Positions 36,402-47,855 of a DNA stretch of 64,000 nt are shown one piece after another. How positions within the stretch are numbered: the stretch's first letter is position 1; each line of letters opens with the position of its first letter. The notes under the pieces are model-generated. The model saw nothing but the letters and a program-made list of their open reading frames with translations, searched no databases and was not told the origin of the DNA. The position numbers and the translations under genes are program-made. Source of the stretch: Mycobacteriaceae bacterium. GTDB taxonomy: Bacteria; Actinomycetota; Actinomycetes; Mycobacteriales; Mycobacteriaceae. The stretch lies in contig JBAXIA010000003.1 in assembly GCA_037138615.1 (NCBI GenBank), positions 7,006-71,005 on the forward strand. Direction: 5' to 3'.

Positions 36402-37526
36402 GTGCTGGACGGTCAGGACAGTCCCATGGTTCCCATCCCGGCAGGCAATCTGCGCGAAAGTGAGCTACTGACAACCTCTTTGCGGGTCGGCGAGGAAATC
36501 GATGACGAGATCGGATTAGTCATCGCCACTTCCGGCACCACCGGCACACCCAAGGGCGCGATGCTGACTCCGGCAGCTCTGATCGCCAGCGCCTCGGCCA
36601 CCCATGACCGACTTGGCGGAGCGGGAAACTGGCTGCTGGCCCTGCCGGCCCACCATATCGCCGGCATGCAGGTGCTGGTGCGTTGTGTGCTGGCCGGTAC
36701 GGTTCCGGCGGAGCTCGACCTCTCAGAGGGTTTTGATATCGCCGAATTACCAAGGGCGGTAGCGCAACTGGGCTCAGGACGGCGCTACACGTCGCTGGTG
36801 GCCAACCAGCTCGCCAAGGCCCTGACCGACACCGCGGCCCGGGCGGCGCTGGCCGAATTAGACGCAGTGCTGCTCGGCGGCGGACCTGCTCCGGCACCGG
36901 TGCTTGACGGCGCGGCCGAGGCAGGAATCACGGTGGTGCGCAGCTATGGCTCGAGCGAGACCGCGGGCGGCTGCGTCTACGACGGACTGCCACTGGACGG
37001 TGTAGAGGTACGGATCGACCAGCCAAACGAGGGCGGACCGGGTCGCATCACGATCGGCGGCGCCACCCTGGCCAAGGGATACCGAAATCCGACGGACCCC
37101 AACCCCTTTGACGAGCCGGGCTGGTTCCACACCAATGATGTTGGTCTCGTTGATGGTTCAGGTCGACTATCGATACTGGGCCGCACCGATGATGCCATCA
37201 GTACCGGCGGGCTGACGATCATGCCCGGGTTGGTGGAAGTGGTGCTGGCCCGCCATCCCGCGGTGGCAGAGTGCGCGGTCTTCGGCGTGCCGGACGATCG
37301 GCTGGGCCAGCGGGTGGCGGCCGCGGTCGTCGCCGCTCCGGGGGTGCCGTGGCCGACACTCGACGAACTGACAGAGTTTCTGGCGATGTCGCTGGATCGC
37401 ACTGCAGCGCCGCGCGAGGTGCACGTCATCGCTGAACTGCCGCGGTACGGAATCGGCAAGATCGACCGCTTGGCGCTGCGCGAGCGCTATTCCGCCCACG
37501 ACGCACCGGGAGCCTACGGCTGGTGA
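36402..37526 (+). CDS. menE: o-Succinylbenzoate-CoA ligase
   Basis: ATSGTTGTPKGA, YGSSE and TNDVG motifs, with the short length typical of MenE. The frame is open and protein-like back to 36306 without any ATG/GTG/TTG (see findings). Confidence 0.88.
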   Translation: MLDGQDSPMVPIPAGNLRESELLTTSLRVGEEIDDEIGLVIATSGTTGTPKGAMLTPAALIASASATHDRLGGAGNWLLALPAHHIAGMQVLVRCVLAGTVPAELDLSEGFDIAELPRAVAQLGSGRRYTSLVANQLAKALTDTAARAALAELDAVLLGGGPAPAPVLDGAAEAGITVVRSYGSSETAGGCVYDGLPLDGVEVRIDQPNEGGPGRITIGGATLAKGYRNPTDPNPFDEPGWFHTNDVGLVDGSGRLSILGRTDDAISTGGLTIMPGLVEVVLARHPAVAECAVFGVPDDRLGQRVAAAVVAAPGVPWPTLDELTEFLAMSLDRTAAPREVHVIAELPRYGIGKIDRLALRERYSAHDAPGAYGW

Positions 37527-38884
37527 GAGGCGACATCGGGCGACGCGATGCCATCGCGGTCTTGGGTGCCGCGCTGCTGGTGGCCGCCGCGTTCGTCGTG
37601 CCGCACCTGCACCTCGGCATCGTGACGCCGCTGATCCACGCAACGGCCGCGCAGATCCATGACTACGCCGAGACCGCACCGATTTTCGGCTGGTGGAATG
37701 CCCATATCGGGTGGGGCACGCTACCGGCCATCACGATCGGGGCCGCCGCCGTGTGGTGGGGACCGCGGATCGCCCAGCGGCTCCGGTGGCGGCAGCTGAC
37801 GTGGGCGACGTGGGCGACGTCATGCGCCTGGGCATTCGCGCTGGCGATGATCGACGGCTGGCAGCGCGGCTTCGCCGGCCGACTGACCGCCAGGCACGAA
37901 TATCTGCGTCAGGTGCCGACCATCACGGATGCAGGCGAGGCGGTGCGCACCTTCTCCAGCCGCATCCTGGACTTCCAGCCGAACTCGTGGATCACACACG
38001 TGTCCGGCCACCCACCCGGTGCGCTGCTGACATTCGTCTGGCTGGACCGCATCGGTCTACGCGGCGGGGCGTGGGCCGGGTTGCTCTGTCTCCTGGCCGG
38101 ATCCAGTGCTGCGGTGGCGATCATCGTCGCCATTCGTGCACTGTGCGATGAGCAGACCGCGCGACTGGCAGCGCCGTTCGTGGCGGTGGCGCCGACTGCG
38201 ATCTGGGTAGTGGTGTCGGCCGACGGCTACTTTGCGGGCGTGGCTGCCTGGGGAATCGCACTGCTGGCATTGGCCGTGCGGAGCAAGGTGCGTAGCCCGG
38301 CGGTGGCGGCGGTGGGGTCTGGGCTCCTGCTCGGCTGGGGAATCTTCCTCAATTACGGCCTGGCACTGATGGCGCTACCGGCAGTCGCGGTGCTGGTGTG
38401 CGCACCCGACCGTCGCACCGCGCTGCGAACGCTGATTGCGGCGGTGGGGGCGGCAGTGGCGGTAGTAGCCGTGTTCGCCGTCGCGGGCTTCTGGTGGTTT
38501 GACGGCTATACCCTTGTCCAGCAACGCTATTGGCAGGGAATCGCGAACGTCCGACCCTTCCAGTACTGGGGATGGGCAAATTTCGCATCGGTGGTGTGTG
38601 CGATCGGCCTGGGCAGCGTCGCGGGTGTGGCCCGAGCCTTCGATAGTGCCGCGGTCAAGAGCCGCCACGGAGTGAATCTACTGGTGTTGGCCGCACTCGC
38701 GGCGATCGTGCTCGCCGACCTGTCGATGCTGTCCAAGGCCGAGACTGAGCGGATCTGGCTGTCATTCGAGGTATGGCTGACCGCCGCACCCGCGCTGCTG
38801 CCGGTGCGGTCACACCGATGGTGGCTGGGCCTTAACGTGGCCGGCGCGCTACTGCTGAACCACGTGATTCTGACGAACTGGTAG
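37523..38884 (+). CDS. Polytopic integral membrane protein (Rv0541c-like; possibly a GT-C-type glycosyltransferase)
   Basis: 453 aa with more than 10 hydrophobic segments. The GTG overlaps the menE stop (GTGA). The functional class is a guess. Confidence 0.7.
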   Translation: MRGDIGRRDAIAVLGAALLVAAAFVVPHLHLGIVTPLIHATAAQIHDYAETAPIFGWWNAHIGWGTLPAITIGAAAVWWGPRIAQRLRWRQLTWATWATSCAWAFALAMIDGWQRGFAGRLTARHEYLRQVPTITDAGEAVRTFSSRILDFQPNSWITHVSGHPPGALLTFVWLDRIGLRGGAWAGLLCLLAGSSAAVAIIVAIRALCDEQTARLAAPFVAVAPTAIWVVVSADGYFAGVAAWGIALLALAVRSKVRSPAVAAVGSGLLLGWGIFLNYGLALMALPAVAVLVCAPDRRTALRTLIAAVGAAVAVVAVFAVAGFWWFDGYTLVQQRYWQGIANVRPFQYWGWANFASVVCAIGLGSVAGVARAFDSAAVKSRHGVNLLVLAALAAIVLADLSMLSKAETERIWLSFEVWLTAAPALLPVRSHRWWLGLNVAGALLLNHVILTNW

Positions 38885-39277
38885 CAGCCTGCTCCCGATC
38901 AGATAGAGCAGCGCCGCCCCCCACACCACTGCCAGCGAAACCCAGAAGCCCCAGTGATAGTCGCGGTCGAGTACCGACGGGTTGTCGAGTTGCAGACCGG
39001 GCTTGTTGTAGACCGGGATCGCGAGTAGGACCAGCACGATGGTGCAGAGGGTGGCCACCAGGAGCGGCGACCACCAGGAGCGGGGCAGGATCCGCCGGGC
39101 CGCGAACCCCAGAGCCAAACAGGCCGGGGCGAATACCGCGTCATGGAGAAGCAACCCGATCGCTGCCCACACCCCGATCCGAATGATCACCTGAGTCGGG
39201 TTATCGAACACCAGGACCGCGCCATAGGCGCCGACCGCGAGGCCGAGGGCGATCAGCAGCCCGCGCACGGCCGTCAT
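38849..39277 (-). CDS. 4-TM membrane protein, unknown function
   Basis: The ATG at 39277 overlaps the stop of the upstream oxidoreductase (ATGA). It has four hydrophobic helices. Confidence 0.6.
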   Translation of the reverse strand: MTAVRGLLIALGLAVGAYGAVLVFDNPTQVIIRIGVWAAIGLLLHDAVFAPACLALGFAARRILPRSWWSPLLVATLCTIVLVLLAIPVYNKPGLQLDNPSVLDRDYHWGFWVSLAVVWGAALLYLIGSRLLPVRQNHVVQQ

Positions 39278-40401
39278 ACCACCACCTCGATCCGTGTCAG
39301 CCATTTGGTCTGCAGCACACCCGGCCTGGACGGGGCGATCAGCCGGGCCGGATAGCCGTGATCGGGATGCAACTGCTCACCATTGAGCTTCAACGCGATC
39401 AGGGTCTGCGAATCGCGCGCGTGCCGGGCCGGCAGCACGGTGCGGGAATACGGTCCCGGTGGCTCGAGCGAGATCATTCGAACATCCGATTCGGCCGAAC
39501 CACCAACAGCCTCAACCAGTTTCGACAGCGGCACGCCGGTCCAGGTCGCGCTGGCACTCCAGCCTTCGACGCAGGCGATCGGTAGCTGGTGGGTGACCTG
39601 AGGCATGGCGGCCAGTTCGGCGAGCGTGAACGCCCGGACTGCGGTGCCGTTGGTGACCGTGAGCCGGTAATCCGGTGAGCCGGCGGCGCGCAGCACCCCG
39701 GCGGCCCATGCCGTCCGGTTCACCGGCAGTCCTTGGGGACCCTGACCTGAACGCGGCGCCAGCAGCGACACCCTGCGCAACCACGACACGGTCTGTCCTG
39801 CAGTCAGCACGGTGGCGACACCGACAGCCAGCCAGGTGCCACGCAGCACGGTCCGCCTGGTCGGCCCGGCTGGAAGCTGGCCGGTCGGAATCTCTTCAAG
39901 CGGCTCGCCGAGCGCACGGCGGATGATCGGCAACTTGACGCCGATATGAACCAGTACCGCACCGGCGACGACATACGCCATCGCGTAGTGGTTGGTGGTG
40001 AAGAAGAACTTGAACCCGTACCACTTGGCGGTGTTCATGATGCCGGTGGACAGTTGAAACAACATGGACGCCACCAGGACCAGAATGGAGGCTCGCTCAA
40101 GCTGGCGGGTCAGCCCGCCGATGATGGGACGCTCGAAGAGTTTCGGGTAGACCGACCACAGCTTGACCACCAGCAGCGGGATCGCGGCGATCCCGGAGAT
40201 GATGTGTAGTCCCTGGGTGAGTTGGTAGAGCCAGACCGGCCGGGTTGGCCAGTAGAACCAGGGCTGCGGGTGCTGGATGAAGTGGCTGATGAACCCGGTG
40301 ATGAAACAAATGGTGATGGCAACGCCCAGTGCCATCCCAACCCGGGCGGTGATCGCAGTGCCGCGCAATGAGGCGTCGGCTGCTGCTTTGGCGCCTGTCA
40401 T
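39274..40401 (-). CDS. Membrane-anchored molybdopterin-dependent oxidoreductase (SUOX/YedY-fold C-terminal domain)
   Basis: The N-terminal region of about 170 aa has 5 helices with conserved His. The C-terminal domain has IACVEGWSASATWTGVPL and ...HGYPARLIAPSRPGVLQTKWL, typical of the Oxidored_molyb fold. A GGGAGG Shine-Dalgarno sequence lies upstream. Confidence 0.8.
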   Translation of the reverse strand: MTGAKAAADASLRGTAITARVGMALGVAITICFITGFISHFIQHPQPWFYWPTRPVWLYQLTQGLHIISGIAAIPLLVVKLWSVYPKLFERPIIGGLTRQLERASILVLVASMLFQLSTGIMNTAKWYGFKFFFTTNHYAMAYVVAGAVLVHIGVKLPIIRRALGEPLEEIPTGQLPAGPTRRTVLRGTWLAVGVATVLTAGQTVSWLRRVSLLAPRSGQGPQGLPVNRTAWAAGVLRAAGSPDYRLTVTNGTAVRAFTLAELAAMPQVTHQLPIACVEGWSASATWTGVPLSKLVEAVGGSAESDVRMISLEPPGPYSRTVLPARHARDSQTLIALKLNGEQLHPDHGYPARLIAPSRPGVLQTKWLTRIEVVV

Positions 40402-40403
40402 CC

Positions 40404-41705
40404 TCAGGCCTCCCAGCCGGCAGCGCCGACAGTGGCAGGCGGGGCATCGTCGCGGTAGACATCGGTTCGCGCGTCAATCTCCCGCGCCAGGTACGGCGGC
40501 ACACTGAGCTTGCCCCTCAAGAGTTGAGGCGTGATCCAACGGTGCTCCCCGGACAGCCCGTCGCCCAAGCCTTCAATGGTCGCGACGTCGAGGCGGCTGA
40601 GGAGATCCTGCTTCGAGGCGATAACGAAGCCGAGGTCCCGGCCGTAGCACGGCGCATCGACCGCGTAGGGGATGACGGACGGGAACACCGCGCGCAGCGT
40701 TCGGATCACCTTCGCGTGCAGCGCCATCTCGATTGGTGACGCCGGGCCGGCCTGCACGGCGAGCACGCCGTGCGGACGCAGCACCCGCGCGATCTCGGTG
40801 AAGTACTCGACGGTGAAACAGAACGTCGACGGCCCGTCCTCCACCGGGTCGGTCATATCGGAGACGACGACATCGAGGCTCCCATCCGGTACCGAAGCCA
40901 AGAATGCGACCGCATCCCGGTACACCAGCGTCACACGTGGGTCATCGAAGGCACCCCGGTGGTGCAACGGCAGGTGCTCGCGGCACGCCGCGACAACTTC
41001 GGCGTCGATATCGACCATCGTCACGTGCTCCATCGCACGCCAGCGCAGCACCTCGCGCAGGCACGCCCCCTCGCCGCCACCGAGGACCAGGGCATCACGA
41101 ACCGGAGCGCTGGCGGCCGCCGCGTAGCACGCCGGGTGGACGATGCCCTCGTGGTAGATGAACTCATCGGCATCGGTGCTCTGTACGACTCCGTCGAGGA
41201 CGAGCATGCGGCCCCAGGTCTCGGACCGACCGATGAGGAAATCCTGGAACTCGCTCGACCCACTGGTGTAGACCTCGGCGAGGTCGTGCTCGTAGCGGTC
41301 GGCGGGGGTGATGAACTCCGCGAATCGGAAGGCGGGCTCGTCTGGTCCGCCGGGAACCACGCGCGGCACCGTCGCTCGCCGGACGTTGGTGGGCGCGAGG
41401 CCCTCGATAATGAGATCGATGAGGTGCTCAGGATCCGCGGCACCACAGGTGTATGCGTCGAGTGTCGCGCCACCCCATTCCGGCCAGGTGTGAATCGAGA
41501 CATGCGACTCTGCGAGTACCACGACCGCAGTCACGCCGTGCGGCTGGAATGCGTGGTGGTGGCGGGAGAGCACCCGGGCGCCCACCGCTTCGCAGGCGTC
41601 GGCGAGCAGTTTTTCGAGTCCGGCGCCGTCATCCAGCAGTGGCGACACGGAGCCGCTGATATCTGCAAGAACGTGGCTGCCGACGGTTCGCGAGGACACG
41701 AGCAC
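40404..41705 (-). CDS. Fused S-adenosylmethionine decarboxylase (pyruvoyl, SpeD/SpeH type) - spermidine synthase-like aminopropyltransferase
   Basis: The N-terminus has GSHVLADISG...VVVLAESHVSIHTWPE...DAYTCG (self-cleavage E|S motif). The C-terminus has LDGVVQS..DEFIYHE, LVLGGGEG, VDIDAEVV and SDMTDP. The ORF is open to 41783; I prefer the GTG near 41705. Confidence 0.8.
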   Translation of the reverse strand: MLVSSRTVGSHVLADISGSVSPLLDDGAGLEKLLADACEAVGARVLSRHHHAFQPHGVTAVVVLAESHVSIHTWPEWGGATLDAYTCGAADPEHLIDLIIEGLAPTNVRRATVPRVVPGGPDEPAFRFAEFITPADRYEHDLAEVYTSGSSEFQDFLIGRSETWGRMLVLDGVVQSTDADEFIYHEGIVHPACYAAAASAPVRDALVLGGGEGACLREVLRWRAMEHVTMVDIDAEVVAACREHLPLHHRGAFDDPRVTLVYRDAVAFLASVPDGSLDVVVSDMTDPVEDGPSTFCFTVEYFTEIARVLRPHGVLAVQAGPASPIEMALHAKVIRTLRAVFPSVIPYAVDAPCYGRDLGFVIASKQDLLSRLDVATIEGLGDGLSGEHRWITPQLLRGKLSVPPYLAREIDARTDVYRDDAPPATVGAAGWEA

Positions 41706-41737
41706 TGAACCTAACACTGGGTACTTAAAACCCGGTG

Positions 41738-42397
41738 TCACAACCCTCGGGTGACTCGGGCGAATCGACCCGATGAGCGGCATGTCGCACGGACAACGGC
41801 AATATCGGCGACGGTGTCGACATCCGGGATCTCCTCCAGCAGTTCGACCGGAGCGCCCGTTCGGCGGAGCGCCTCAGCGGTGATCACACCGGTGTCGGGG
41901 TGCGACATCGGAACCCCGCGAAGGCATTGCGCGGTCGCGGCGTCGGCCACCCCCAGCAGCCACCATCCGCCGTCACAGGCCGGCCCGAGTACTGCATGTG
42001 CGTCAAGCAGGGCGCGGGCGCTGCGGGTGAGCAACTCGACGGTGACCTGTGGAGTGTCCATCCCGATCTGCAGCACGGGCATGGGCCCGACGGCGTCGGC
42101 AGCGTCGGCATGGGCGTTGGCCAACCGCTCGGCAAAGTCGGTGCCGCGTTGCTCGATCACGATGAACCCGGACAGCCGTTCACGGATGGCGTCAGCCCGA
42201 CAGGCCATCGCGAGGTCGCCCGTTATCGCGACAACCTTTGCGGCAAAGGGTGTTTCGGCAACTGTATCGAGAGTGTCGAGCAGTGCCGCCGCGGCGATGT
42301 CTGCGGCCATCGTGTCCCCCAGCACCGCGGCCAGCCGGGTCTTGGCCAGGCCGGGAACCGGAGCCTTGGCCACGACCAAGGCGATCACCGGTATCAC
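41738..42397 (-). CDS. DUF2064 / TIGR04282-type nucleotidyl- or glycosyl-transferase-like protein (Rv0540-like)
   Basis: (V)IPVIALVVAKAPVPGLAKTRL... is a typical DUF2064 start. The GTG at 42397 overlaps the upstream stop (GTGA). Confidence 0.75.
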   Translation of the reverse strand: MIPVIALVVAKAPVPGLAKTRLAAVLGDTMAADIAAAALLDTLDTVAETPFAAKVVAITGDLAMACRADAIRERLSGFIVIEQRGTDFAERLANAHADAADAVGPMPVLQIGMDTPQVTVELLTRSARALLDAHAVLGPACDGGWWLLGVADAATAQCLRGVPMSHPDTGVITAEALRRTGAPVELLEEIPDVDTVADIAVVRATCRSSGRFARVTRGL

Positions 42398-43050
42398 GAG
42401 ATCGTCTTCCAGAAGTCGAGGGCGGCAATCACACTGCCGCGGACCGAACCGCTGACTTTCGATTTTCCGCCCAGCCGCGGACCGTAGTCGACATCGACCT
42501 CGATGACCTTCCATCCGGCCGCGGCCGCCCGAACCAACAACTCGAGCGGATACCCCGACCGGCGATCGGTCACACCGAGTGCGAGCAGCGCGTCACGGCG
42601 CACCACCCGCATCGGAGCGATGTCGTGGACGCCCAGCCTGTGCTTAGTCCGCAGCCGCCAGCACACGGCAGCGGTGCCCAGACGGGCATGCCACGGCCAG
42701 CGCAGCCCGGGAAGGGGGCGGCGCCGGCCGATCACCATGTCGGCACCGCGCTCCAGTTCCTTGACGAGCCCGGGCAGATCGGCAGGGTCCAGGGATCCGT
42801 CGCCGTCGAGCACCGCGACGACAGATGTCTGCGCTGCCAGCACGCCGGCGTGCACGGCCGAGCCGTATCCGGGCCGGGTCTCGGTGACCACCTGCGCTCC
42901 GTGGAGGCGAGCGACTTCCGCGGTGGCATCGGTGCTGTTGTTGTCGACCACCAGGGGGCGATAGCCGGGTGGAATGGCGGCCAGTACGGCGGGTAGCGAC
43001 TCGGCCTCGTTGAGACACGGCAGCACCACCGTGATCGCAGAGCCGGACAT
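42394..43050 (-). CDS. Family-2 glycosyltransferase (Rv0539-like, dolichyl-phosphate sugar synthase-like)
   Basis: ITVVLPCLNEAESL...VVDNNSTD...VAVLDGDGS (DxD) motifs. Confidence 0.85.
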   Translation of the reverse strand: MSGSAITVVLPCLNEAESLPAVLAAIPPGYRPLVVDNNSTDATAEVARLHGAQVVTETRPGYGSAVHAGVLAAQTSVVAVLDGDGSLDPADLPGLVKELERGADMVIGRRRPLPGLRWPWHARLGTAAVCWRLRTKHRLGVHDIAPMRVVRRDALLALGVTDRRSGYPLELLVRAAAAGWKVIEVDVDYGPRLGGKSKVSGSVRGSVIAALDFWKTIS

Positions 43051-43150: not shown

Positions 43151-43855
43151 ATGCAGTCCCGTGTTCTGATCGCCGACGACGACGTCGTGGTGCGCGATAT
43201 CGTGCGCCGCTATCTCGAACGCGACGGCCACGAGGTCCGAGTCGCCAGTGACGGTAATGAGGCATTGCGGATGCTTGGCACTGAGCGGATCGACGTGGCG
43301 GTGCTTGACGTGATGATGCCGGGCCCCAACGGGCTGTCACTGTGCCGAACGTTGCGCCAGGGCGGCGACTACACGGTCCCGGTGATCCTGCTGACCGCAC
43401 TCAGCGAGGAGGATGACCGGATCGCCGGACTCGAAGCCGGCGCCGACGACTACCTCACCAAGCCGTTCAGCCCGCGGGAGCTGGCCCTGCGGGTGCGCTC
43501 GTTGCTGCGCCGCGCTCCGGCCCCGTCGCCGACGGTGCCGTTGGAGATCACCATGGGTGACCTGAGAGTGTCCACAGCGGCACGGGCGGTAACCGTGGGC
43601 GGGCAACCGGTTGGCCTGACCAACCGCGAGTTCGATCTGCTGTTGTTCTTCATCACCCACACCGACGTCGTCTTCTCCCGGGAGGAACTGCTGAAGGAGG
43701 TGTGGAACTGGGACTTCGGTGACCTCTCGACGGTGACGGTGCATGTGAAGCGGTTGCGGTCCAAGCTCACCGAGCACCATCGCGTGCAGACGGTGTGGGG
43801 TCGTGGATACCTCTGGCGGGGTGAAGCCGACGGCGGTGACCGTGCCCACGCATGA
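43151..43855 (+). CDS. OmpR-family response regulator
   Basis: Receiver motifs (LIADDD..., VLDVMMPG, LTA, KPF) and a winged-helix C-terminus (VHVKRLRSKL...VWGRGY). Confidence 0.93.
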   Translation: MQSRVLIADDDVVVRDIVRRYLERDGHEVRVASDGNEALRMLGTERIDVAVLDVMMPGPNGLSLCRTLRQGGDYTVPVILLTALSEEDDRIAGLEAGADDYLTKPFSPRELALRVRSLLRRAPAPSPTVPLEITMGDLRVSTAARAVTVGGQPVGLTNREFDLLLFFITHTDVVFSREELLKEVWNWDFGDLSTVTVHVKRLRSKLTEHHRVQTVWGRGYLWRGEADGGDRAHA

Positions 43856-44867
43856 CCTGACCCAGATCGCCTTACTGGCGCTGGGCGTCTCGCTACCGGT
43901 GGTGCTCATCGGCGGATTGATCATCCGACTTGCGCGGTCGTGGTCCCTGACCGTCAGCATGGTGGCGTTGGTGCTGATCCCCACCCTGGCCACCTTCGCC
44001 GGGGTTTTTGCCGCCAGCCGGTTTATGACGAGCAGCACCTTCCAGACGATCGCCGTGGTGCTGGTGATCGTGGCGGTGGTGACTCTGCCGGCCGCGGTGA
44101 TGCTCGCCCGGTACCAGGCTCGGCGGACAGTGTGGGAGAGAGAGATTCAGGATGCCGAACGGGTAGCTGAGCAGTCTCGGCGCCAGCTTGTGGCATTCGT
44201 AAGTCACGATCTGCGCACACCCCTGGCTGGGATCCGAGCGTTGTCGGAGGCGATCGCCGACGGTGTGTTCAACGACGACGAGGTTCGGACGCAGGCGAAA
44301 ACCATTGAGCAGGAAACTATTCGGCTCTCCGCGATGGTTGATGACCTGTTCGAGATGGCGAAGATCAACGCGGGCGCGGTCAATGCACCCTACGATCGGG
44401 TAGCTCTTGACGAGGTCGTCGATGATGTGTTGATTTCTCACCGGATGGCCGCCGAGCGATCTGGGGTGGTGCTCAAGGTCGATCTGCCGACCAAACCGGT
44501 TCGGGTGATCGGCAGTGATCGCGCGCTGGTGCGGGTGCTGTCCAATCTGGTGGCCAATGCGATCGCCCACACTCCGGCCGGTGGTTCGGTCACGCTCGCA
44601 GTGGGTGCTGATGAGAACGGAGCTTGGGCCCGGGTGGACGATACCGGCGTCGGAATCGACGCCGATGACCTGCCGCGGGTGTTCGATGTCGCGTACCGGG
44701 GTTCGAATCACCGTGTGCCCCGGTCCGATTCGTCATTGCCCAGCGGATCCGGACTTGGTTTGGCGATCGCAGCCGGCCTGGTGCGGGCGCATCGCGGCAC
44801 GCTGTCGGCACACAATCTGGATCACGGTGCGCGGTTCGAGGTGCGGCTGCCGCTGGCGGCCGAGTAG
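43803..44867 (+). CDS. Sensor histidine kinase
   Basis: Two N-terminal TM helices, an H-box FVSHDLRTPL, an N-box LSNLVANAI and a G-box GSGLGLAIA. The start is uncertain because several in-frame GTGs lie in the overlap with the response regulator. Confidence 0.88.
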   Translation: MDTSGGVKPTAVTVPTHDLTQIALLALGVSLPVVLIGGLIIRLARSWSLTVSMVALVLIPTLATFAGVFAASRFMTSSTFQTIAVVLVIVAVVTLPAAVMLARYQARRTVWEREIQDAERVAEQSRRQLVAFVSHDLRTPLAGIRALSEAIADGVFNDDEVRTQAKTIEQETIRLSAMVDDLFEMAKINAGAVNAPYDRVALDEVVDDVLISHRMAAERSGVVLKVDLPTKPVRVIGSDRALVRVLSNLVANAIAHTPAGGSVTLAVGADENGAWARVDDTGVGIDADDLPRVFDVAYRGSNHRVPRSDSSLPSGSGLGLAIAAGLVRAHRGTLSAHNLDHGARFEVRLPLAAE

Positions 44868-46041: not shown

Positions 46042-47073
46042 TCAGCCACGAAGCGGGGCGAACGCGAACTCCCGCAACCCCTGTTCGGGCCGGATCTGAG
46101 CTCGGAATCCGAGCAGTTCGGCGGCCCGGGCCGGATCGGCGACTATATGGCGAACGTCGCCGCTGCGGTACTGGCCGGTGACGACCGGAGCGGGTCCGCC
46201 GCGGGCCTCGCACAGTGCCCTCGCAACCTCGATGATCGAGACCGGCTGCCCCGAACACACGTTGGCGGCCAGGAAAGCCCCAGAATCGGCACGCACAGCG
46301 GCGACATTGGCGGCCGCAACATCGTCGACGTGGACGAAGTCACGCATCTGCCCGCCATCCTCAAAAACCTTAGGCGCCTCGCCATTTTCAAGGGATGAAC
46401 GGAAGATCGCCGCCACTCCGGAATACGGGGTGTCTCGGGGCATGCCCGGTCCGTAAACGTTGTGGTAGCGCAGCGCCACCACGGAGCCGCCTGCTGATTC
46501 CGCCCACGCCAGCGCGTAGTTCTCCTGGGCGGTCTTACTCGCGGCATACAGACTGCGCGGCCGCAGCGGCGCGTCCTCGCCGACCAACCGCCAGGAGAGA
46601 TCCTCGCCACCGACCGGGCACCGATGTTCGAAATGACCGGCGTCCAGGTCAGCCGGCGTTCGCGGCAATGGATCGACCGCGCCATGCACCGGGCACTCGT
46701 AAAGGCCCTGGCCGTAGACCACCATCGACGATGCCAGCACCAGCCGACGAACTCCGGCCGCGAACATCGCGGCCAGCAGGACCGCGGTGCCGTAGTCATT
46801 GTGCGACGCATACGACGGTGCGTCGGCGGCGTTGACGCCTGCCCCGACCACGGCGGCCTGATGACAGACGGCATCGACGCCCTTGAGTGCGTGTGCGACG
46901 GCGTCAGCATCGCGGATGTCGAGCCGACGGCATCCCTGGGGTATCACCGCCCCAGGCCCGTGGGCGGCGTCGAGCAGGGTGTCGACCGCGACAACGTCAT
47001 GTCCATCGGCGCGTAGCGCGGTGTGCACCCGGCCACCGATGAAACCGGCCGCACCGGTGAGCAGCACCCTCAT
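46042..47073 (-). CDS. galE3: NAD-dependent epimerase/dehydratase (GalE3/Rv0536-like)
   Basis: MRVLLTGAAGFIGGRV Rossmann start and YAASK catalytic motif. The ATG overlaps the MTAP stop (ATGA). The symbol is tentative. Confidence 0.85.
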   Translation of the reverse strand: MRVLLTGAAGFIGGRVHTALRADGHDVVAVDTLLDAAHGPGAVIPQGCRRLDIRDADAVAHALKGVDAVCHQAAVVGAGVNAADAPSYASHNDYGTAVLLAAMFAAGVRRLVLASSMVVYGQGLYECPVHGAVDPLPRTPADLDAGHFEHRCPVGGEDLSWRLVGEDAPLRPRSLYAASKTAQENYALAWAESAGGSVVALRYHNVYGPGMPRDTPYSGVAAIFRSSLENGEAPKVFEDGGQMRDFVHVDDVAAANVAAVRADSGAFLAANVCSGQPVSIIEVARALCEARGGPAPVVTGQYRSGDVRHIVADPARAAELLGFRAQIRPEQGLREFAFAPLRG

Positions 47074-47855
47074 GGCAGATCGAAGGGAAGCTCGACGCCC
47101 TCGTGGGCCAGACAGTGCGTACACACCCGATCTGAGGCCACCCGATCGATGGCATCGTGAATAAGCGCCTTGAACGGGCCGATATTGCGCTCAAATTCGG
47201 CGAAGACATCCACTGCCCGCACACCGGCACCGACATGAACGCCGGCGTCGACATCGGTAACGAGTGCGATTGCTGCGTAACACATCTCGAGTTCTCGGGC
47301 GAGCACTGCCTCCGGGTATCCGGTCATGTTCACCAGGGTGAATCCTTGGCGGGCGAACCATTCGCTTTCTGCCCGGGTGGAAAAGCGGGGGCCCTGAATC
47401 ACGACCACGGTTCCGCCATCGATCACCCCGGGCGCATCAGTCACGGCGGCCCGCAGTGTCGGACAGTACGGATCGGCGAACCCGACGTGAATCCCGCCGG
47501 AGTCGAAGTAGGTATCCGTGCGACCGCGGGTGCGGTCGACGAGTTGGTCGGGAACCACCACCGCGCCGGGTCCAAGTTCAGCGGTGAGACTGCCCACCGC
47601 GCAGGGCCCAAACACGCGGCGCACGCCCAGCGCCCGCAATGCCCACATATTGGCCAGGTACGGCACGGTGTGCGGTGAGTACTCGTGGCTGCGACCATGG
47701 CGCGGCAGGAAGGCCACCTGATGCGTACCGACCTGGCCTACGGTGATCGGCGCACTCGGTTCACCGTAGGGCGTGTCGATGTTGACGCTGCGCGCATCGT
47801 CGCCGAAGAAGGTATAGAAGCCGCTGCCACCGATGACGCCGATCACGCAGACCAT
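47070..47855 (-). CDS. mtnP: S-methyl-5'-thioadenosine phosphorylase
   Basis: VIGVIGGSGFY...FLPRHG..H..PH.V.Y.AN pattern of PNP/MTAP family 2, in the Rv0535 position. Confidence 0.9.
   Translation of the reverse strand: MVCVIGVIGGSGFYTFFGDDARSVNIDTPYGEPSAPITVGQVGTHQVAFLPRHGRSHEYSPHTVPYLANMWALRALGVRRVFGPCAVGSLTAELGPGAVVVPDQLVDRTRGRTDTYFDSGGIHVGFADPYCPTLRAAVTDAPGVIDGGTVVVIQGPRFSTRAESEWFARQGFTLVNMTGYPEAVLARELEMCYAAIALVTDVDAGVHVGAGVRAVDVFAEFERNIGPFKALIHDAIDRVASDRVCTHCLAHEGVELPFDLP

What the first reader, a model, noticed from the sequence alone, without database searches (positions are those of the whole stretch)
38849..43050. Five-gene coupled operon: GT2 + DUF2064 transferases extended by a fused AdoMetDC-aminopropyltransferase, a membrane Moco oxidoreductase and a 4-TM protein
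All five genes lie on the minus strand with almost no intergenic space.
- GT2 (43050->42394) overlaps DUF2064 (42397->41738) by GTGA.
- About 30 nt (or an overlap, depending on the start) separates DUF2064 from the fusion gene (41705->40404).
- 2 nt plus an internal GGGAGG Shine-Dalgarno sequence separate the fusion from the oxidoreductase (40401->39274).
- The oxidoreductase overlaps the 4-TM protein (39277->38849) by ATGA.
The fusion joins a pyruvoyl AdoMet decarboxylase (AESHVSIHTWPE self-cleavage motif) to a spermidine-synthase fold (DEFIYHE, GGGEG, SDMTDP). One polypeptide therefore makes decarboxy-SAM and transfers the aminopropyl group.
From memory, in M. tuberculosis Rv0539 and Rv0540 are followed directly by the convergent Rv0541c. 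The last three genes therefore look like an insertion into a conserved envelope-glycosylation-type locus.
AdoMetDC/SpdSyn fusions have been reported in a few bacteria. I do not know of a described system that links one to a GT2/DUF2064 pair and a haem-b-like/Moco oxidoreductase.
My speculation is aminopropylation (or polyamine attachment) of a lipid-linked sugar or envelope glycan, or a dedicated polyamine pathway. MTAP, which salvages the MTA by-product, lies 5 kb away.
Basis: partly seen in the sequence, partly recalled or inferred. Interest (0 to 1): 0.7.

Follow-up and report, generated by a model that had tools for sequence, protein, structure and literature searches.

The report
Methylthioxylose glycan-cap operon with built-in precursor supply
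The five genes form a real operon, a variant of the known mycobacterial gene cluster that caps a cell-wall glycan with the sulfur sugar methylthioxylose; it also carries a polyamine enzyme whose by-product is that sugar's precursor and a periplasmic molybdenum enzyme that may act on the sugar's sulfur.

Summary
Five minus-strand genes lie at 38849-43050 with overlaps or gaps of 4, 32, 2 and 4 nt, and every domain call is confirmed.

The interpretation needs revision.
- **What the locus is.** It is the counterpart of M. tuberculosis Rv0535-Rv0543c, the published five-gene cluster for the 5-methylthio-xylofuranose (MTX) cap of lipoarabinomannan. MTAP and the epimerase lie 3-4 kb upstream. The GT2 corresponds to MtxS (Rv0539), DUF2064 to Rv0540, and the convergent GT-C gene to MtxT (Rv0541c).
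- **What is ancestral.** The molybdenum (MoCo) oxidoreductase and the 4-TM gene are not a local insertion. M. aichiense, M. rhodesiae and M. anyangense carry GT2-DUF2064-methyltransferase-MoCo-4TM. Only gene 3 differs here.
- **The fusion.** It is an unmodified member of the validated class 1b AdoMetDC-aminopropyltransferase fusion family. In relatives it occupies four different positions inside this cluster. In one derived clade it sits alone next to prfC.

My best explanation is that the link runs through the by-product. Aminopropyl transfer releases methylthioadenosine, the precursor of MTX. The MoCo protein is a Sco3746-type Sec/Tat-inserted periplasmic enzyme and may reduce the MTX sulfoxide. 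Both functional links are inferred, not shown.

This is a new variant of a known kind, of moderate interest.

The parts
47070..47855 (-). S-methyl-5'-thioadenosine phosphorylase (MTAP), Rv0535-like. It is the proposed first enzyme of the MTX pathway (MTA -> 5-methylthioribose-1-phosphate).
   Evidence: NF005876 scores 471.7 bits (cut-off 306) and TIGR01694 scores 292.9 bits (cut-off 274.85). PDB MTAPs match at E = 1e-57.
46042..47073 (-). NAD-dependent sugar epimerase (Rv0536/GalE3-like). It overlaps the MTAP stop by 4 nt if the 343-aa start used in relatives is taken.
   Evidence: Pfam Epimerase, E = 1.2e-44. The 343-aa orthologue directly follows MTAP in relatives.
43151..44867 (+). OmpR/PhoB-type response regulator (43151-43855) and histidine kinase (43803-44867). 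They are transcribed divergently from the operon's 100-nt promoter region and are a candidate regulator.
   Evidence: Pfam and NCBIfam hits. The same divergent pair occurs in M. aichiense, M. rhodesiae, M. anyangense and the contig whose fusion is 91% identical.
42394..43050 (-). Gene 1: GT2 polyprenyl-phosphate sugar synthase, MtxS (Rv0539)-like.
   Evidence: PF00535, 71 bits. The best NCBIfam similarities are dolichyl-/polyprenyl-phosphate sugar synthases (AglJ, PpgS, ArnC). Its position matches Rv0539 by synteny.
41738..42397 (-). Gene 2: DUF2064 / TIGR04282 CofC-like nucleotidyltransferase-fold protein, Rv0540-like. It is the inferred maker of the methylthio-pentose nucleotide sugar.
   Evidence: PF09837, 103.6 bits. 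TIGR04282, 119.9 bits, below its cut-off of 134. It overlaps gene 1 by GTGA.
40404..41705 (-). Gene 3: class 1b pyruvoyl AdoMetDC (about residues 1-120) fused to a Thermus-type polyamine aminopropyltransferase (about residues 130-433). It converts SAM to dcSAM, then to an aminopropylated amine plus MTA.
   Evidence: TIGR03330 scores 104.5 bits (cut-off 75.65). PF01564 scores 127.8 bits. PDB 2III matches at E = 3e-24 and 1UIR/3ANX at E = 1e-52. More than 100 full-length homologues of 431-437 aa were found.
39274..40401 (-). Gene 4: five-TM membrane protein with four conserved His, a twin-arginine motif (R182-R183) before a weakly hydrophobic TMD5, and a C-terminal sulfite-oxidase-family MoCo domain (Cys277). 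It has the Sco3746-type dual Sec/Tat architecture, with the MoCo domain predicted to be periplasmic.
   Evidence: PF00174, 95.4 bits. Hydropathy profile. Conserved residues across 34-57% identical homologues. Predicted helices. Family description in PMC5449189.
38849..39277 (-). Gene 5: 142-aa protein with four TM segments and no known family. It is always translationally coupled to the MoCo gene and appears restricted to Mycobacteriaceae.
   Evidence: No Pfam or NCBIfam hit. Four hydrophobic segments. Only 264 homologues were found, and every named one is from Mycolicibacterium or Mycobacterium. It follows the MoCo gene in every locus examined.
37523..38884 (+). Convergent polytopic GT-C-like membrane glycosyltransferase, MtxT (Rv0541c)-like. 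Its 3' end overlaps gene 5 by 36 nt.
   Evidence: Weak PMT_2 hit, E = 1.5e-4. Many TM segments. It lies between menE and the operon, as Rv0541c does. The neighbouring DUF3349 gene matches Rv0543c (PDB 2KVC) at E = 3.8e-36.

Best explanation
**What the locus is.** It is a Mycolicibacterium-type version of the mycobacterial MTX (5-deoxy-5-methylthio-xylofuranose) glycan-capping cluster.

**Core pathway.** This is the published model, quoted from memory of Angala et al. 2017. MTAP converts methylthioadenosine (MTA) to methylthioribose-1-phosphate. The DUF2064 protein makes a nucleotide sugar. The epimerase converts ribo to xylo. The GT2 (MtxS) loads MTX onto decaprenyl phosphate. The convergent GT-C enzyme (MtxT) transfers it to lipoarabinomannan outside the membrane.

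**Two add-ons are fused into the mtxS operon here.**
1. *The AdoMetDC-aminopropyltransferase fusion.* It is a cytoplasmic enzyme that turns SAM plus an amine acceptor into a polyamine plus MTA. I infer that it is kept in the cluster because its by-product MTA is the committed precursor of MTX. That gives the operon its own precursor supply.
2. *The MoCo protein and its 4-TM partner.* The MoCo protein has five TM segments and four conserved histidines suited to binding two haems b, and is predicted to be Tat-exported. I infer that the pair forms a quinol-linked periplasmic oxidoreductase. Its most likely substrate is the sulfur of the exposed MTX residue, reducing the sulfoxide (MSX) back to MTX in the manner of MsrPQ.

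**Shown versus inferred.** The gene identities, architecture, synteny and recurrent linkage are shown. The MTA-supply logic and the MSX-reductase role are inferred.
For: **Synteny with M. tuberculosis Rv0528-Rv0548c**
- The window order is ResB, CcsA, DUF4229, MenA, DUF1345, MTAP, epimerase, NMO, HK/RR, GT2, DUF2064, the three genes in question, GT-C, MenE, DUF3349, PitA, SDR, MenB.
- The DUF3349 protein matches Rv0543c (PDB 2KVC) at E = 3.8e-36.
- MenB matches 1Q51, which I recall as M. tuberculosis MenB, at E = 2e-181.

**Literature**
- Rv0539 is MtxS and Rv0541c is MtxT, and a five-gene cluster is described.
- The sulfoxide form MSX is found on LAM.

**The fusion is a standard enzyme**
- The AdoMetDC part scores above the curated cut-off.
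- The aminopropyltransferase part aligns over almost its whole length with T. thermophilus SpeE.
- All catalytic motifs are conserved in 33 orthologues.
- Members of the family have been shown to be active (PMC11107197 and PMC12803844).

**Recurrent linkage of the fusion to the cluster, in four arrangements**
- A: DUF2064-fusion-MoCo (the window).
- B: divergent from MtxT (L003, L010).
- C: DUF2064-fusion-MtxT (L085, L086).
- D: MTAP-fusion-epimerase, with a 4-nt overlap between the fusion and the epimerase (L087, L088).
- These arrangements are basal in a neighbour-joining tree.

**The MoCo protein**
- It has a twin-arginine motif, four conserved His and a conserved Cys in a CVEGWS motif. These match the Sco3746 family description.
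- The Cys aligns with residue 102 of E. coli YedY/MsrP (1XDQ).
- MoCo plus 4-TM lies inside the cluster in every one of the roughly 15 distinct loci examined.
Against: - Linkage of the fusion is not obligatory. A monophyletic clade of orthologues at 85-88% identity sits beside prfC. Contigs L081 and L135 come from one metagenome sample at similar coverage, so probably one genome. Its MTX cluster lacks the fusion.
- Orthologues at 74-77% identity in other actinobacteria have unrelated neighbours.
- The four arrangements may descend from a single insertion followed by neutral local rearrangements, so they are not four independent events.
- M. tuberculosis makes MTX without any of the three extra genes.
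- The cultivated relatives carry a methyltransferase, not an MTA producer, as gene 3. That methyltransferase is unexplained.
- The MoCo domain cannot be assigned to MsrP-like rather than sulfite-dehydrogenase-like enzymes. By sequence, SoxC scores 59 bits and MsrP 33.7 bits. By fold, SorA, SoxC, YedY and PruR match about equally.
- The primary MTX paper could not be read, so the pathway steps are from memory.
- I did not compare the GT2, DUF2064 or GT-C sequences directly with Rv0539, Rv0540 or Rv0541c.
Confidence: 0.5

Rival explanations
1. No functional link. The fusion is an ordinary self-contained polyamine synthase, acquired horizontally, that landed in a permissive spot of the mtxS operon. 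The operon is a composite of unrelated functions, and the MoCo/4-TM pair is a general periplasmic sulfite or sulfoxide oxidoreductase.
For: - The same enzyme at 74-88% identity is monocistronic or sits in unrelated contexts in a sister mycobacterial clade and in other actinobacteria.
- Its sequence does not differ between linked and unlinked copies.
- The same intergenic slot holds a different gene (a methyltransferase) or nothing in relatives, which suggests a permissive insertion site.
Against: - The fusion occupies four different positions within one cluster of about 8 kb in basal lineages. These include a position right after MTAP, with a translational overlap into the epimerase.
- It is tightly coupled to the downstream gene in the window (a 2-nt gap with a Shine-Dalgarno sequence inside the fusion's 3' end).
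- The MoCo/4-TM pair is invariably inside the cluster in all loci seen.
Confidence: 0.3
2. Gene 3 of the operon is an alkyltransferase acting on a pathway intermediate or on the glycan. It transfers methyl in M. aichiense-type clusters and aminopropyl in this lineage, giving an aminopropylated sugar or envelope glycan.
For: - Gene 3 is a class-I methyltransferase-fold, SAM-dependent enzyme in three cultivated species and a dcSAM-dependent enzyme of the same fold class here.
- Fusion-bearing genomes lack that methyltransferase in the cluster.
Against: - The two proteins show no sequence similarity.
- In most fusion-bearing genomes the slot is simply empty and the fusion sits elsewhere in or outside the cluster. 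The 'swap' is therefore at most one evolutionary event.
- The aminopropyltransferase domain is a full-length match to a soluble polyamine aminopropyltransferase. Its acceptor-side motifs are identical in orthologues that have no glycosyltransferase neighbours.
- The protein is cytoplasmic, with no signal peptide or TM segment.
Confidence: 0.08
3. The fusion is coupled to the MoCo oxidoreductase rather than to the sugar pathway, for example in polyamine oxidation or export across the membrane. The 4-TM protein would act as a transporter.
For: In the window and its close relatives the fusion is translationally coupled to the MoCo gene (2-nt gap), and the MoCo gene to the 4-TM gene.
Against: - Adjacency of the fusion and the MoCo gene is limited to arrangement A. 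In arrangements B, C and D, and in the prfC clade, they are separated or on opposite strands.
- MoCo/4-TM occurs without any fusion in cultivated species.
- Sulfite-oxidase-family enzymes are not known amine oxidases (my own knowledge).
Confidence: 0.04

Closest known systems
MTX (methylthioxylose) capping gene cluster of M. tuberculosis lipoarabinomannan: Rv0535 (MTAP), Rv0536 (epimerase), Rv0539 (MtxS), Rv0540 and Rv0541c (MtxT). Source: Angala et al. 2017, ACS Chem Biol 12:682.
   Same: - It has the same five gene families in the same chromosomal neighbourhood, between menA and menE/Rv0543c/pitA/menB.
- MtxS and the DUF2064 gene overlap.
- MtxT is convergent.
   Different: - Three extra genes (the fusion, MoCo and 4-TM) lie between the Rv0540-like and Rv0541c-like genes.
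- NMO and a two-component system lie between the epimerase and mtxS.
- The organism is an uncultured Mycolicibacterium-like species, and its LAM has never been analysed.
Bacterial class 1b AdoMetDC-aminopropyltransferase fusion proteins (Green et al. 2011, Mol Microbiol 81:1109; Li et al. 2024, PMC11107197; PMC12803844).
   Same: - The N-terminal domain is a pyruvoyl AdoMetDC with the ES cleavage site.
- The C-terminal domain is an aminopropyltransferase.
- Both lie in a single polypeptide.
- Family members were shown to make spermidine, spermine or other polyamines from scratch.
   Different: - No fusion of this kind has been reported, in what I could read, inside a glycan-modification cluster.
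- The product specificity of this actinobacterial clade is unknown. It has GGGEG and is closest to the T. thermophilus agmatine/triamine aminopropyltransferase.
- It carries an invariant C-terminal PPATxGAAGW tail.
Sco3746-type polytopic MoCo proteins inserted jointly by the Sec and Tat pathways (Tooke et al. 2017, eLife, PMC5449189).
   Same: - Five TMDs.
- Conserved histidines suited to two b haems.
- A conserved twin-arginine motif directly before a weakly hydrophobic TMD5.
- A C-terminal extracytoplasmic MoCo domain.
   Different: - No substrate or genomic context has been assigned to that family.
- Here the protein is embedded in the MTX cluster and coupled to a 4-TM partner found only in mycobacteria.
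- I made no direct sequence comparison with Sco3746.
MsrPQ (YedYZ), the periplasmic methionine-sulfoxide reductase system.
   Same: - The periplasmic MoCo domain is of the short sulfite-oxidase-family type, without a dimerisation domain.
- The Cys ligand lies in a C-V-E-x-W-S motif that aligns with YedY Cys102.
- A haem-b membrane module supplies electrons.
- Both would act on a methyl-thioether or methyl-sulfoxide substrate.
   Different: - It is one polypeptide instead of two.
- The membrane domain resembles cytochrome b561 or DUF4405 rather than MsrQ.
- The MsrP equivalog model scores 33.7 bits against a cut-off of 207.
- The substrate is untested.
The TIGR04282/TIGR04283 pair ('arsenosugar biosynthesis glycosyltransferases').
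   Same: A DUF2064 protein is paired with a small GT2. In both systems the pair would process a 5-substituted 5-deoxyribose that derives from the adenosyl part of SAM.
   Different: - Both proteins score below the curated cut-offs (119.9 against 134, and 41.6 against 182).
- No radical-SAM ArsS or ArsM gene is present.
- The GT2 looks like a polyprenyl-phosphate sugar synthase.

Membership tests
MTX capping cluster (Rv0535-Rv0541c type) | An MTAP gene in the cluster | tested here: met
   Window 47070-47855 (-). NF005876 scores 471.7 bits against a cut-off of 306.
MTX capping cluster (Rv0535-Rv0541c type) | An NAD-dependent sugar epimerase next to MTAP | tested here: met
   Window 46042-47073 (-). 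Pfam Epimerase, E = 1.2e-44. It is contiguous with MTAP.
MTX capping cluster (Rv0535-Rv0541c type) | A GT2 polyprenyl-phosphate sugar synthase (MtxS) overlapping a DUF2064 gene (Rv0540) | tested here: met
   PF00535 and PF09837 hits, a GTGA overlap, and similarity to Dpm1/AglJ/PpgS/ArnC-type synthases. I made no direct alignment with the Rv0539 or Rv0540 sequences.
MTX capping cluster (Rv0535-Rv0541c type) | A convergent GT-C membrane glycosyltransferase (MtxT), followed by menE and Rv0543c | tested here: met
   The polytopic 453-aa protein has a weak PMT_2 hit. An AMP-ligase is adjacent. The DUF3349 protein matches Rv0543c (2KVC) at E = 3.8e-36.
MTX capping cluster (Rv0535-Rv0541c type) | An MTX residue actually present on lipoarabinomannan | not testable with these tools
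   This needs NMR or MS of LAM from this lineage or from M. aichiense.
Class 1b AdoMetDC-aminopropyltransferase fusion | A pyruvoyl AdoMetDC domain with the Glu-Ser self-cleavage site | tested here: met
   TIGR03330 scores 104.5 bits against a cut-off of 75.65. The ESH(V/I)SIHTWPE motif is invariant apart from one V/I position. PDB 2III matches at E = 3e-24.
Class 1b AdoMetDC-aminopropyltransferase fusion | An aminopropyltransferase domain with the dcSAM and catalytic motifs, in the same ORF | tested here: met
   PF01564 scores 127.8 bits. GGGEG, D-x-T-D-P and DEFIYHE are invariant. More than 100 homologues of 431-437 aa were found.
Class 1b AdoMetDC-aminopropyltransferase fusion | Both enzyme activities demonstrated | not testable with these tools
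   Activity has been shown only for other family members (PMC11107197, PMC12803844).
Spermidine synthase SpeE (equivalog) | A score above the curated equivalog cut-off | tested here: not met
   TIGR00417 scores 177.9 against 249.55, and NF002010 scores 213.9 against 260. The closest structure is T. thermophilus polyamine aminopropyltransferase 1UIR, so the acceptor may not be putrescine.
Sco3746-type dual Sec/Tat MoCo membrane protein | Five TMDs with a twin-arginine motif directly before a weakly hydrophobic TMD5 | tested here: met
   Four segments have Kyte-Doolittle hydropathy of at least 1.8. A fifth helix at 182-201 falls below the threshold. R182 is invariant and R183 at least 90% conserved in 34-57% identical homologues.
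Sco3746-type dual Sec/Tat MoCo membrane protein | Conserved TMD histidines for two b haems, and a C-terminal MoCo domain with a Cys ligand | tested here: met
   H66 is invariant. H40, H138 and H152 are at least 90% conserved. C277 is invariant. PF00174 scores 95.4 bits. The histidines fall in TMD1, TMD2 and TMD4 by my numbering, against TMD2-4 in the paper.
Sco3746-type dual Sec/Tat MoCo membrane protein | Sequence homology to Sco3746 itself | not tested
MsrPQ methionine sulfoxide reductase | An MsrP equivalog score and a separate MsrQ subunit | tested here: not met
   NF003767 scores 33.7 bits against a cut-off of 207. The protein is a single fused polypeptide. Foldseek does not separate YedY from the sulfite dehydrogenases.

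The most novel reading that the evidence does not exclude
Gene 3 of this conserved operon is an exchangeable alkyl-donor enzyme. Where relatives use a methyltransferase, this lineage would use a self-sufficient aminopropyl-transfer enzyme on the same pathway intermediate. The result would be a cationic, aminopropyl-decorated methylthio-pentose or envelope glycan, a modification not known in any bacterium.
Probability: 0.07. Interest if true: 0.85.

Novelty: new variant of a known kind. Interest (0 to 1): 0.5.

Why it matters
MTX is a rare thioether sugar on mycobacterial lipoarabinomannan. It is used as a diagnostic epitope and a chemical handle, and its physiological role is unsettled. An antioxidant role has been proposed.

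If the present reading is right, environmental mycobacteria show two things that M. tuberculosis does not.
- **A dedicated precursor supply.** The cell makes a polyamine partly in order to obtain MTA.
- **A periplasmic, quinol-driven MoCo enzyme wired to the cluster.** This would give the MTX/MSX couple an enzymatic redox cycle at the cell surface.

It would also supply the first substrate hypothesis for the Sco3746 family of Sec/Tat dual-inserted MoCo proteins. All of this can be tested directly in cultivable relatives such as M. aichiense, M. rhodesiae and M. anyangense. They carry the MoCo/4-TM genes, with a methyltransferase as gene 3.

Tried and rejected
**Papers not held**
- The primary papers were not available: Angala 2017 (PMC5357196), Angala 2018 (PMC5831173) and Green 2011 (PMC3196669). 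Pathway details and the Nocardia fusion data therefore rest on memory.

**Look-ups that found nothing**
- Exact-sequence look-up of the window's MoCo protein, and of P0184, found nothing.

**Uninformative analyses**
- The promoter and terminator scan of the operon found no promoter-like sites. It found only weak terminator-like sites inside coding sequence.
- The AlphaFold model of the MoCo protein was mediocre (mean pLDDT 63, with the membrane domain poor). The Foldseek search against the PDB could not distinguish MsrP/YedY from SorA, SoxC or PruR.

**Ideas tested and dropped**
- I tested whether the M. aichiense gene-3 methyltransferase is a remnant or relative of the fusion. It shows no similarity. 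The methyltransferase next to MTAP in L135 is unrelated as well.
- I tested whether cluster-linked fusions carry distinctive substitutions. Only one column differs, at position 163.
- Base composition shows no sign of recent foreign origin for the three genes.
- I considered a fusion-MoCo functional pair. I rejected it because their adjacency is confined to one arrangement.

Full report
**1. Observation**

The ORF list and the sequence confirm five co-directional minus-strand genes.
- GT2, 43050->42394 (218 aa).
- DUF2064, 42397->41738 (219 aa), which overlaps GT2 by GTGA.
- The fusion, 41705->40404 (433 aa), after a 32-nt gap.
- The MoCo protein, 40401->39274 (375 aa). It starts 2 nt after the fusion's stop, with GGGAGG inside the fusion's 3' end.
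- A 4-TM protein, 39277->38849 (142 aa), which overlaps the MoCo gene by ATGA.

Pfam and NCBIfam confirm every domain.
- The AdoMetDC part passes the curated equivalog cut-off (TIGR03330, 104.5 against 75.65 bits).
- The aminopropyltransferase part is a clear Spermine_synth domain (127.8 bits). It stays below the SpeE equivalog cut-offs.
- The MoCo domain is PF00174 (95 bits).
- The 4-TM protein has no family.

The fusion is not an assembly artefact. More than 100 homologues of 431-437 aa carry both domains. The same five-gene order occurs in independent contigs at 91-100% identity. G+C content is uniform across the region.

**2. What the locus is**

The wider window runs in this order: ResB, CcsA, DUF4229, MenA (UbiA), DUF1345, MTAP (47070-47855), epimerase (46042-47073), nitronate monooxygenase, histidine kinase and response regulator, the five genes, a convergent polytopic GT-C-like protein (37523-38884), MenE, DUF3349, PitA, an SDR and MenB.
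- The DUF3349 protein matches PDB 2KVC at E = 3.8e-36. 2KVC is M. tuberculosis Rv0543c (PMC6151718).
- MenB matches 1Q51, which I recall as M. tuberculosis MenB, at E = 2e-181.

The window is therefore collinear with M. tuberculosis Rv0528-Rv0548c. The GT2, DUF2064 and GT-C genes occupy the positions of Rv0539, Rv0540 and Rv0541c.

These are not anonymous genes.
- Rv0541c is MtxT, which transfers methylthio-D-xylose to the mannoside caps of lipoarabinomannan (PMC8780516).
[quoted passage not shown] 2017).

I could not open the primary paper. From memory, its model has five steps:
1. MTAP converts MTA to methylthioribose-1-phosphate.
2. A nucleotide sugar is formed.
3. The sugar is epimerised at C-3.
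4. It is transferred to decaprenyl phosphate.
5. It is transferred to LAM.

That paper calls MTA 'a ubiquitous by-product of spermidine biosynthesis'.

**3. Which genes are really extra**

I looked up homologues of the MoCo and 4-TM proteins in cultivated species. M. aichiense, M. rhodesiae JS60 and M. anyangense share one layout: a divergent response regulator and kinase, then GT2, DUF2064, a 208-209-aa class-I methyltransferase, MoCo and 4-TM, then the convergent GT-C gene.
- A tightly packed five-gene operon is therefore the normal state in this group.
- MoCo and 4-TM are constant members.
It occupies the gene-3 position that a methyltransferase holds elsewhere.
- The two gene-3 proteins are unrelated in sequence.

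**4. Distribution of the fusion**

A scan of one genome per species found close relatives (83-88% identity) only in six uncultured Mycobacteriaceae MAGs. It found relatives at 75-77% in other actinobacterial MAGs, and at about 50% or less in Acidimicrobiia, Chloroflexota, Planctomycetota and others. I mapped the window's proteins onto all fetched loci. Five arrangements emerged.

| Arrangement | Gene order | Where found |
|---|---|---|
| A | DUF2064-fusion-MoCo | window, the P0002 contig, L093-L096, L106, L109 |
| B | MTAP-epimerase-GT2-DUF2064-MoCo-4TM, convergent MtxT, then the fusion divergent from MtxT | L003, L010 |
| C | MTAP-epimerase-GT2-DUF2064-fusion-MtxT, with MoCo-4TM convergent | L085, L086 |
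| D | MTAP-fusion-epimerase-GT2-DUF2064-MoCo-4TM, the fusion overlapping the epimerase by 4 nt | L087, L088 |
| E | the fusion alone; next to prfC in all but L011, where no prfC match was found | L001, L002, L004, L011, L081, L082, L089, L090, L097, L098 |

- In a neighbour-joining tree, arrangement E forms one derived clade. Arrangements A-D form the basal grade. The tree has no bootstrap support values.
- For arrangement E, contigs L081 and L135 come from the same metagenome sample at similar coverage, so they probably belong to one genome. That genome still has epimerase-GT2-DUF2064-MoCo-4TM, the convergent MtxT, and MTAP. Its cluster contains neither the fusion nor the methyltransferase.
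- The orthologues at 74-77% identity in other actinobacteria lie in unrelated contexts.

Linkage of the fusion to the MTX cluster is therefore recurrent and survives rearrangement. It is not obligatory.

**5. Is the fusion specialised?**

It does not appear to be.
- The aminopropyltransferase part aligns over almost its whole length with T. thermophilus polyamine aminopropyltransferase (1UIR/3ANX, E = 1e-52).
- The N-terminal part aligns with Aquifex and Thermotoga class 1b AdoMetDC.
- In 33 orthologues above 70% identity, all catalytic motifs are identical. A single column (position 163, T against A/V) separates cluster-linked from unlinked copies.
- Fusions of this family have been shown to carry both activities (PMC11107197 and PMC12803844).
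- The protein has no signal peptide or membrane segment.

This argues against a new glycan or lipid-sugar acceptor. It argues for ordinary products, namely an aminopropylated amine plus MTA.

**6. The MoCo protein**

- Hydropathy gives four strong TM segments.
- A fifth helix at 182-201 is weaker and follows 'PTRRTVLRG'.
- Across homologues only 34-57% identical, H66, R182, C277, G280 and W281 are invariant. H40, H138, H152 and R183 are at least 90% conserved.

This matches the architecture described for Sco3746-type proteins: five TMDs, two b haems, a twin-arginine motif before a weakly hydrophobic TMD5, and a MoCo domain exported by Tat (PMC5449189). The MoCo domain is thus predicted to lie outside the membrane, where MtxT deposits MTX.

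- The domain is short (about 160 aa, with no dimerisation domain).
- Its Cys aligns with residue 102 of E. coli YedY/MsrP (1XDQ).
- Neither sequence scores nor the fold search (on a model with pLDDT 63) separate it from the sulfite dehydrogenases.
- The sulfoxide form of MTX (MSX) is abundant on LAM (PMC8531672).

An MsrPQ-like enzyme that reduces MSX to MTX is an attractive proposal, but it is untested.

The 4-TM partner has only 264 detectable homologues. Every named one is mycobacterial.

**7. Best explanation and its limits**

I conclude that the finding is a Mycolicibacterium-type MTX operon with two add-ons.
- The first is the constant MoCo/4-TM redox module.
- The second is found only in this lineage of uncultured mycobacteria. 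It is a self-sufficient enzyme that converts SAM through dcSAM to MTA.

The most economical reason for keeping that enzyme in the cluster is that its by-product MTA is the substrate of the cluster's first enzyme, MTAP. In arrangement D the two genes are direct neighbours.

| Statement | My probability |
|---|---|
| The locus is the MTX-cluster counterpart | about 0.85 |
| The fusion is a standard, active AdoMetDC-aminopropyltransferase | about 0.85 |
| MTA supply explains the linkage | about 0.45 |
| The MoCo enzyme acts on MTX/MSX | about 0.3 |

The main rival is chance hitch-hiking in a permissive operon (0.3). It is kept alive by the unexplained fact that relatives have a methyltransferase at the same position.

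**8. Novelty**

Each component belongs to a described family or system. Their combination has not, as far as I could read, been described.
- The new elements are the MoCo/4-TM genes as regular members of the MTX cluster in fast-growing mycobacteria, and an AdoMetDC-aminopropyltransferase inside that cluster.
- It is a new variant of a known kind.
- Its value lies in concrete hypotheses that can be tested in cultivable relatives.

Noticed in passing
L083 7363-7992; L134 6372-7001; L137 5245-5871: In M. aichiense, M. rhodesiae JS60 and M. anyangense, gene 3 of the GT2-DUF2064-X-MoCo-4TM operon is a 208-209-aa class-I methyltransferase-fold protein. It has only weak generic family hits, the best being the DVU_1556 family at 36 bits. 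Fusion-bearing genomes lack it. Its role in an MTX-type pathway is unknown.
   Followed up: partly
window 43151-44867 (+): An OmpR/PhoB-type response regulator and a histidine kinase are transcribed divergently from the operon across a 100-nt intergenic region. The same pair occupies this position in M. aichiense, M. rhodesiae, M. anyangense and the contig whose fusion is 91% identical. It is a candidate dedicated regulator of the operon.
   Followed up: partly
window 38849-38884: The 4-TM gene and the convergent MtxT-like gene overlap at their 3' ends by 36 nt, which leaves no room for terminators. Overlaps of about 30 nt recur in L010, L083 and L135.
   Followed up: partly
window 40404-40445 (last 14 codons of the fusion): The C-terminal tail PPATxGAAGW(E) is conserved even in fusion homologues that are only about 50% identical. 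It extends beyond the region that aligns with T. thermophilus SpeE. It is not specific to cluster-linked copies.
   Followed up: no
L005-L009, L091, L092, L100-L102: Fusion orthologues at 74-77% identity occur in MAGs labelled Nanopelagicales, Actinomycetes or Actinomycetota, next to unrelated genes such as Vut_1 and TGT. This suggests horizontal exchange of the gene among environmental actinobacteria.
   Followed up: partly
L127 (Ga0194052_1006106), L109, L094: JGI metagenome contigs carry MoCo, 4-TM, MtxT and MenE at 99-100% identity to the window. The window's organism, or a very close strain, is therefore present in those samples. No exact protein match was on record in the assembly index.
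   Followed up: no
L085/L086 5110-7203: In arrangement C the inverted MoCo/4-TM pair is preceded by toxin-antitoxin-like genes (PIN, and Fic with VbhA). This is consistent with a rearrangement-prone region.
   Followed up: no
L083 1194-2317; L134 235-1367: M. aichiense and M. rhodesiae have AhpC- and AhpD-like peroxiredoxin genes between the epimerase and the nitronate monooxygenase. In the window these two genes are directly adjacent. Antioxidant genes thus sit next to a cluster that makes an oxidisable thioether sugar.
   Followed up: no
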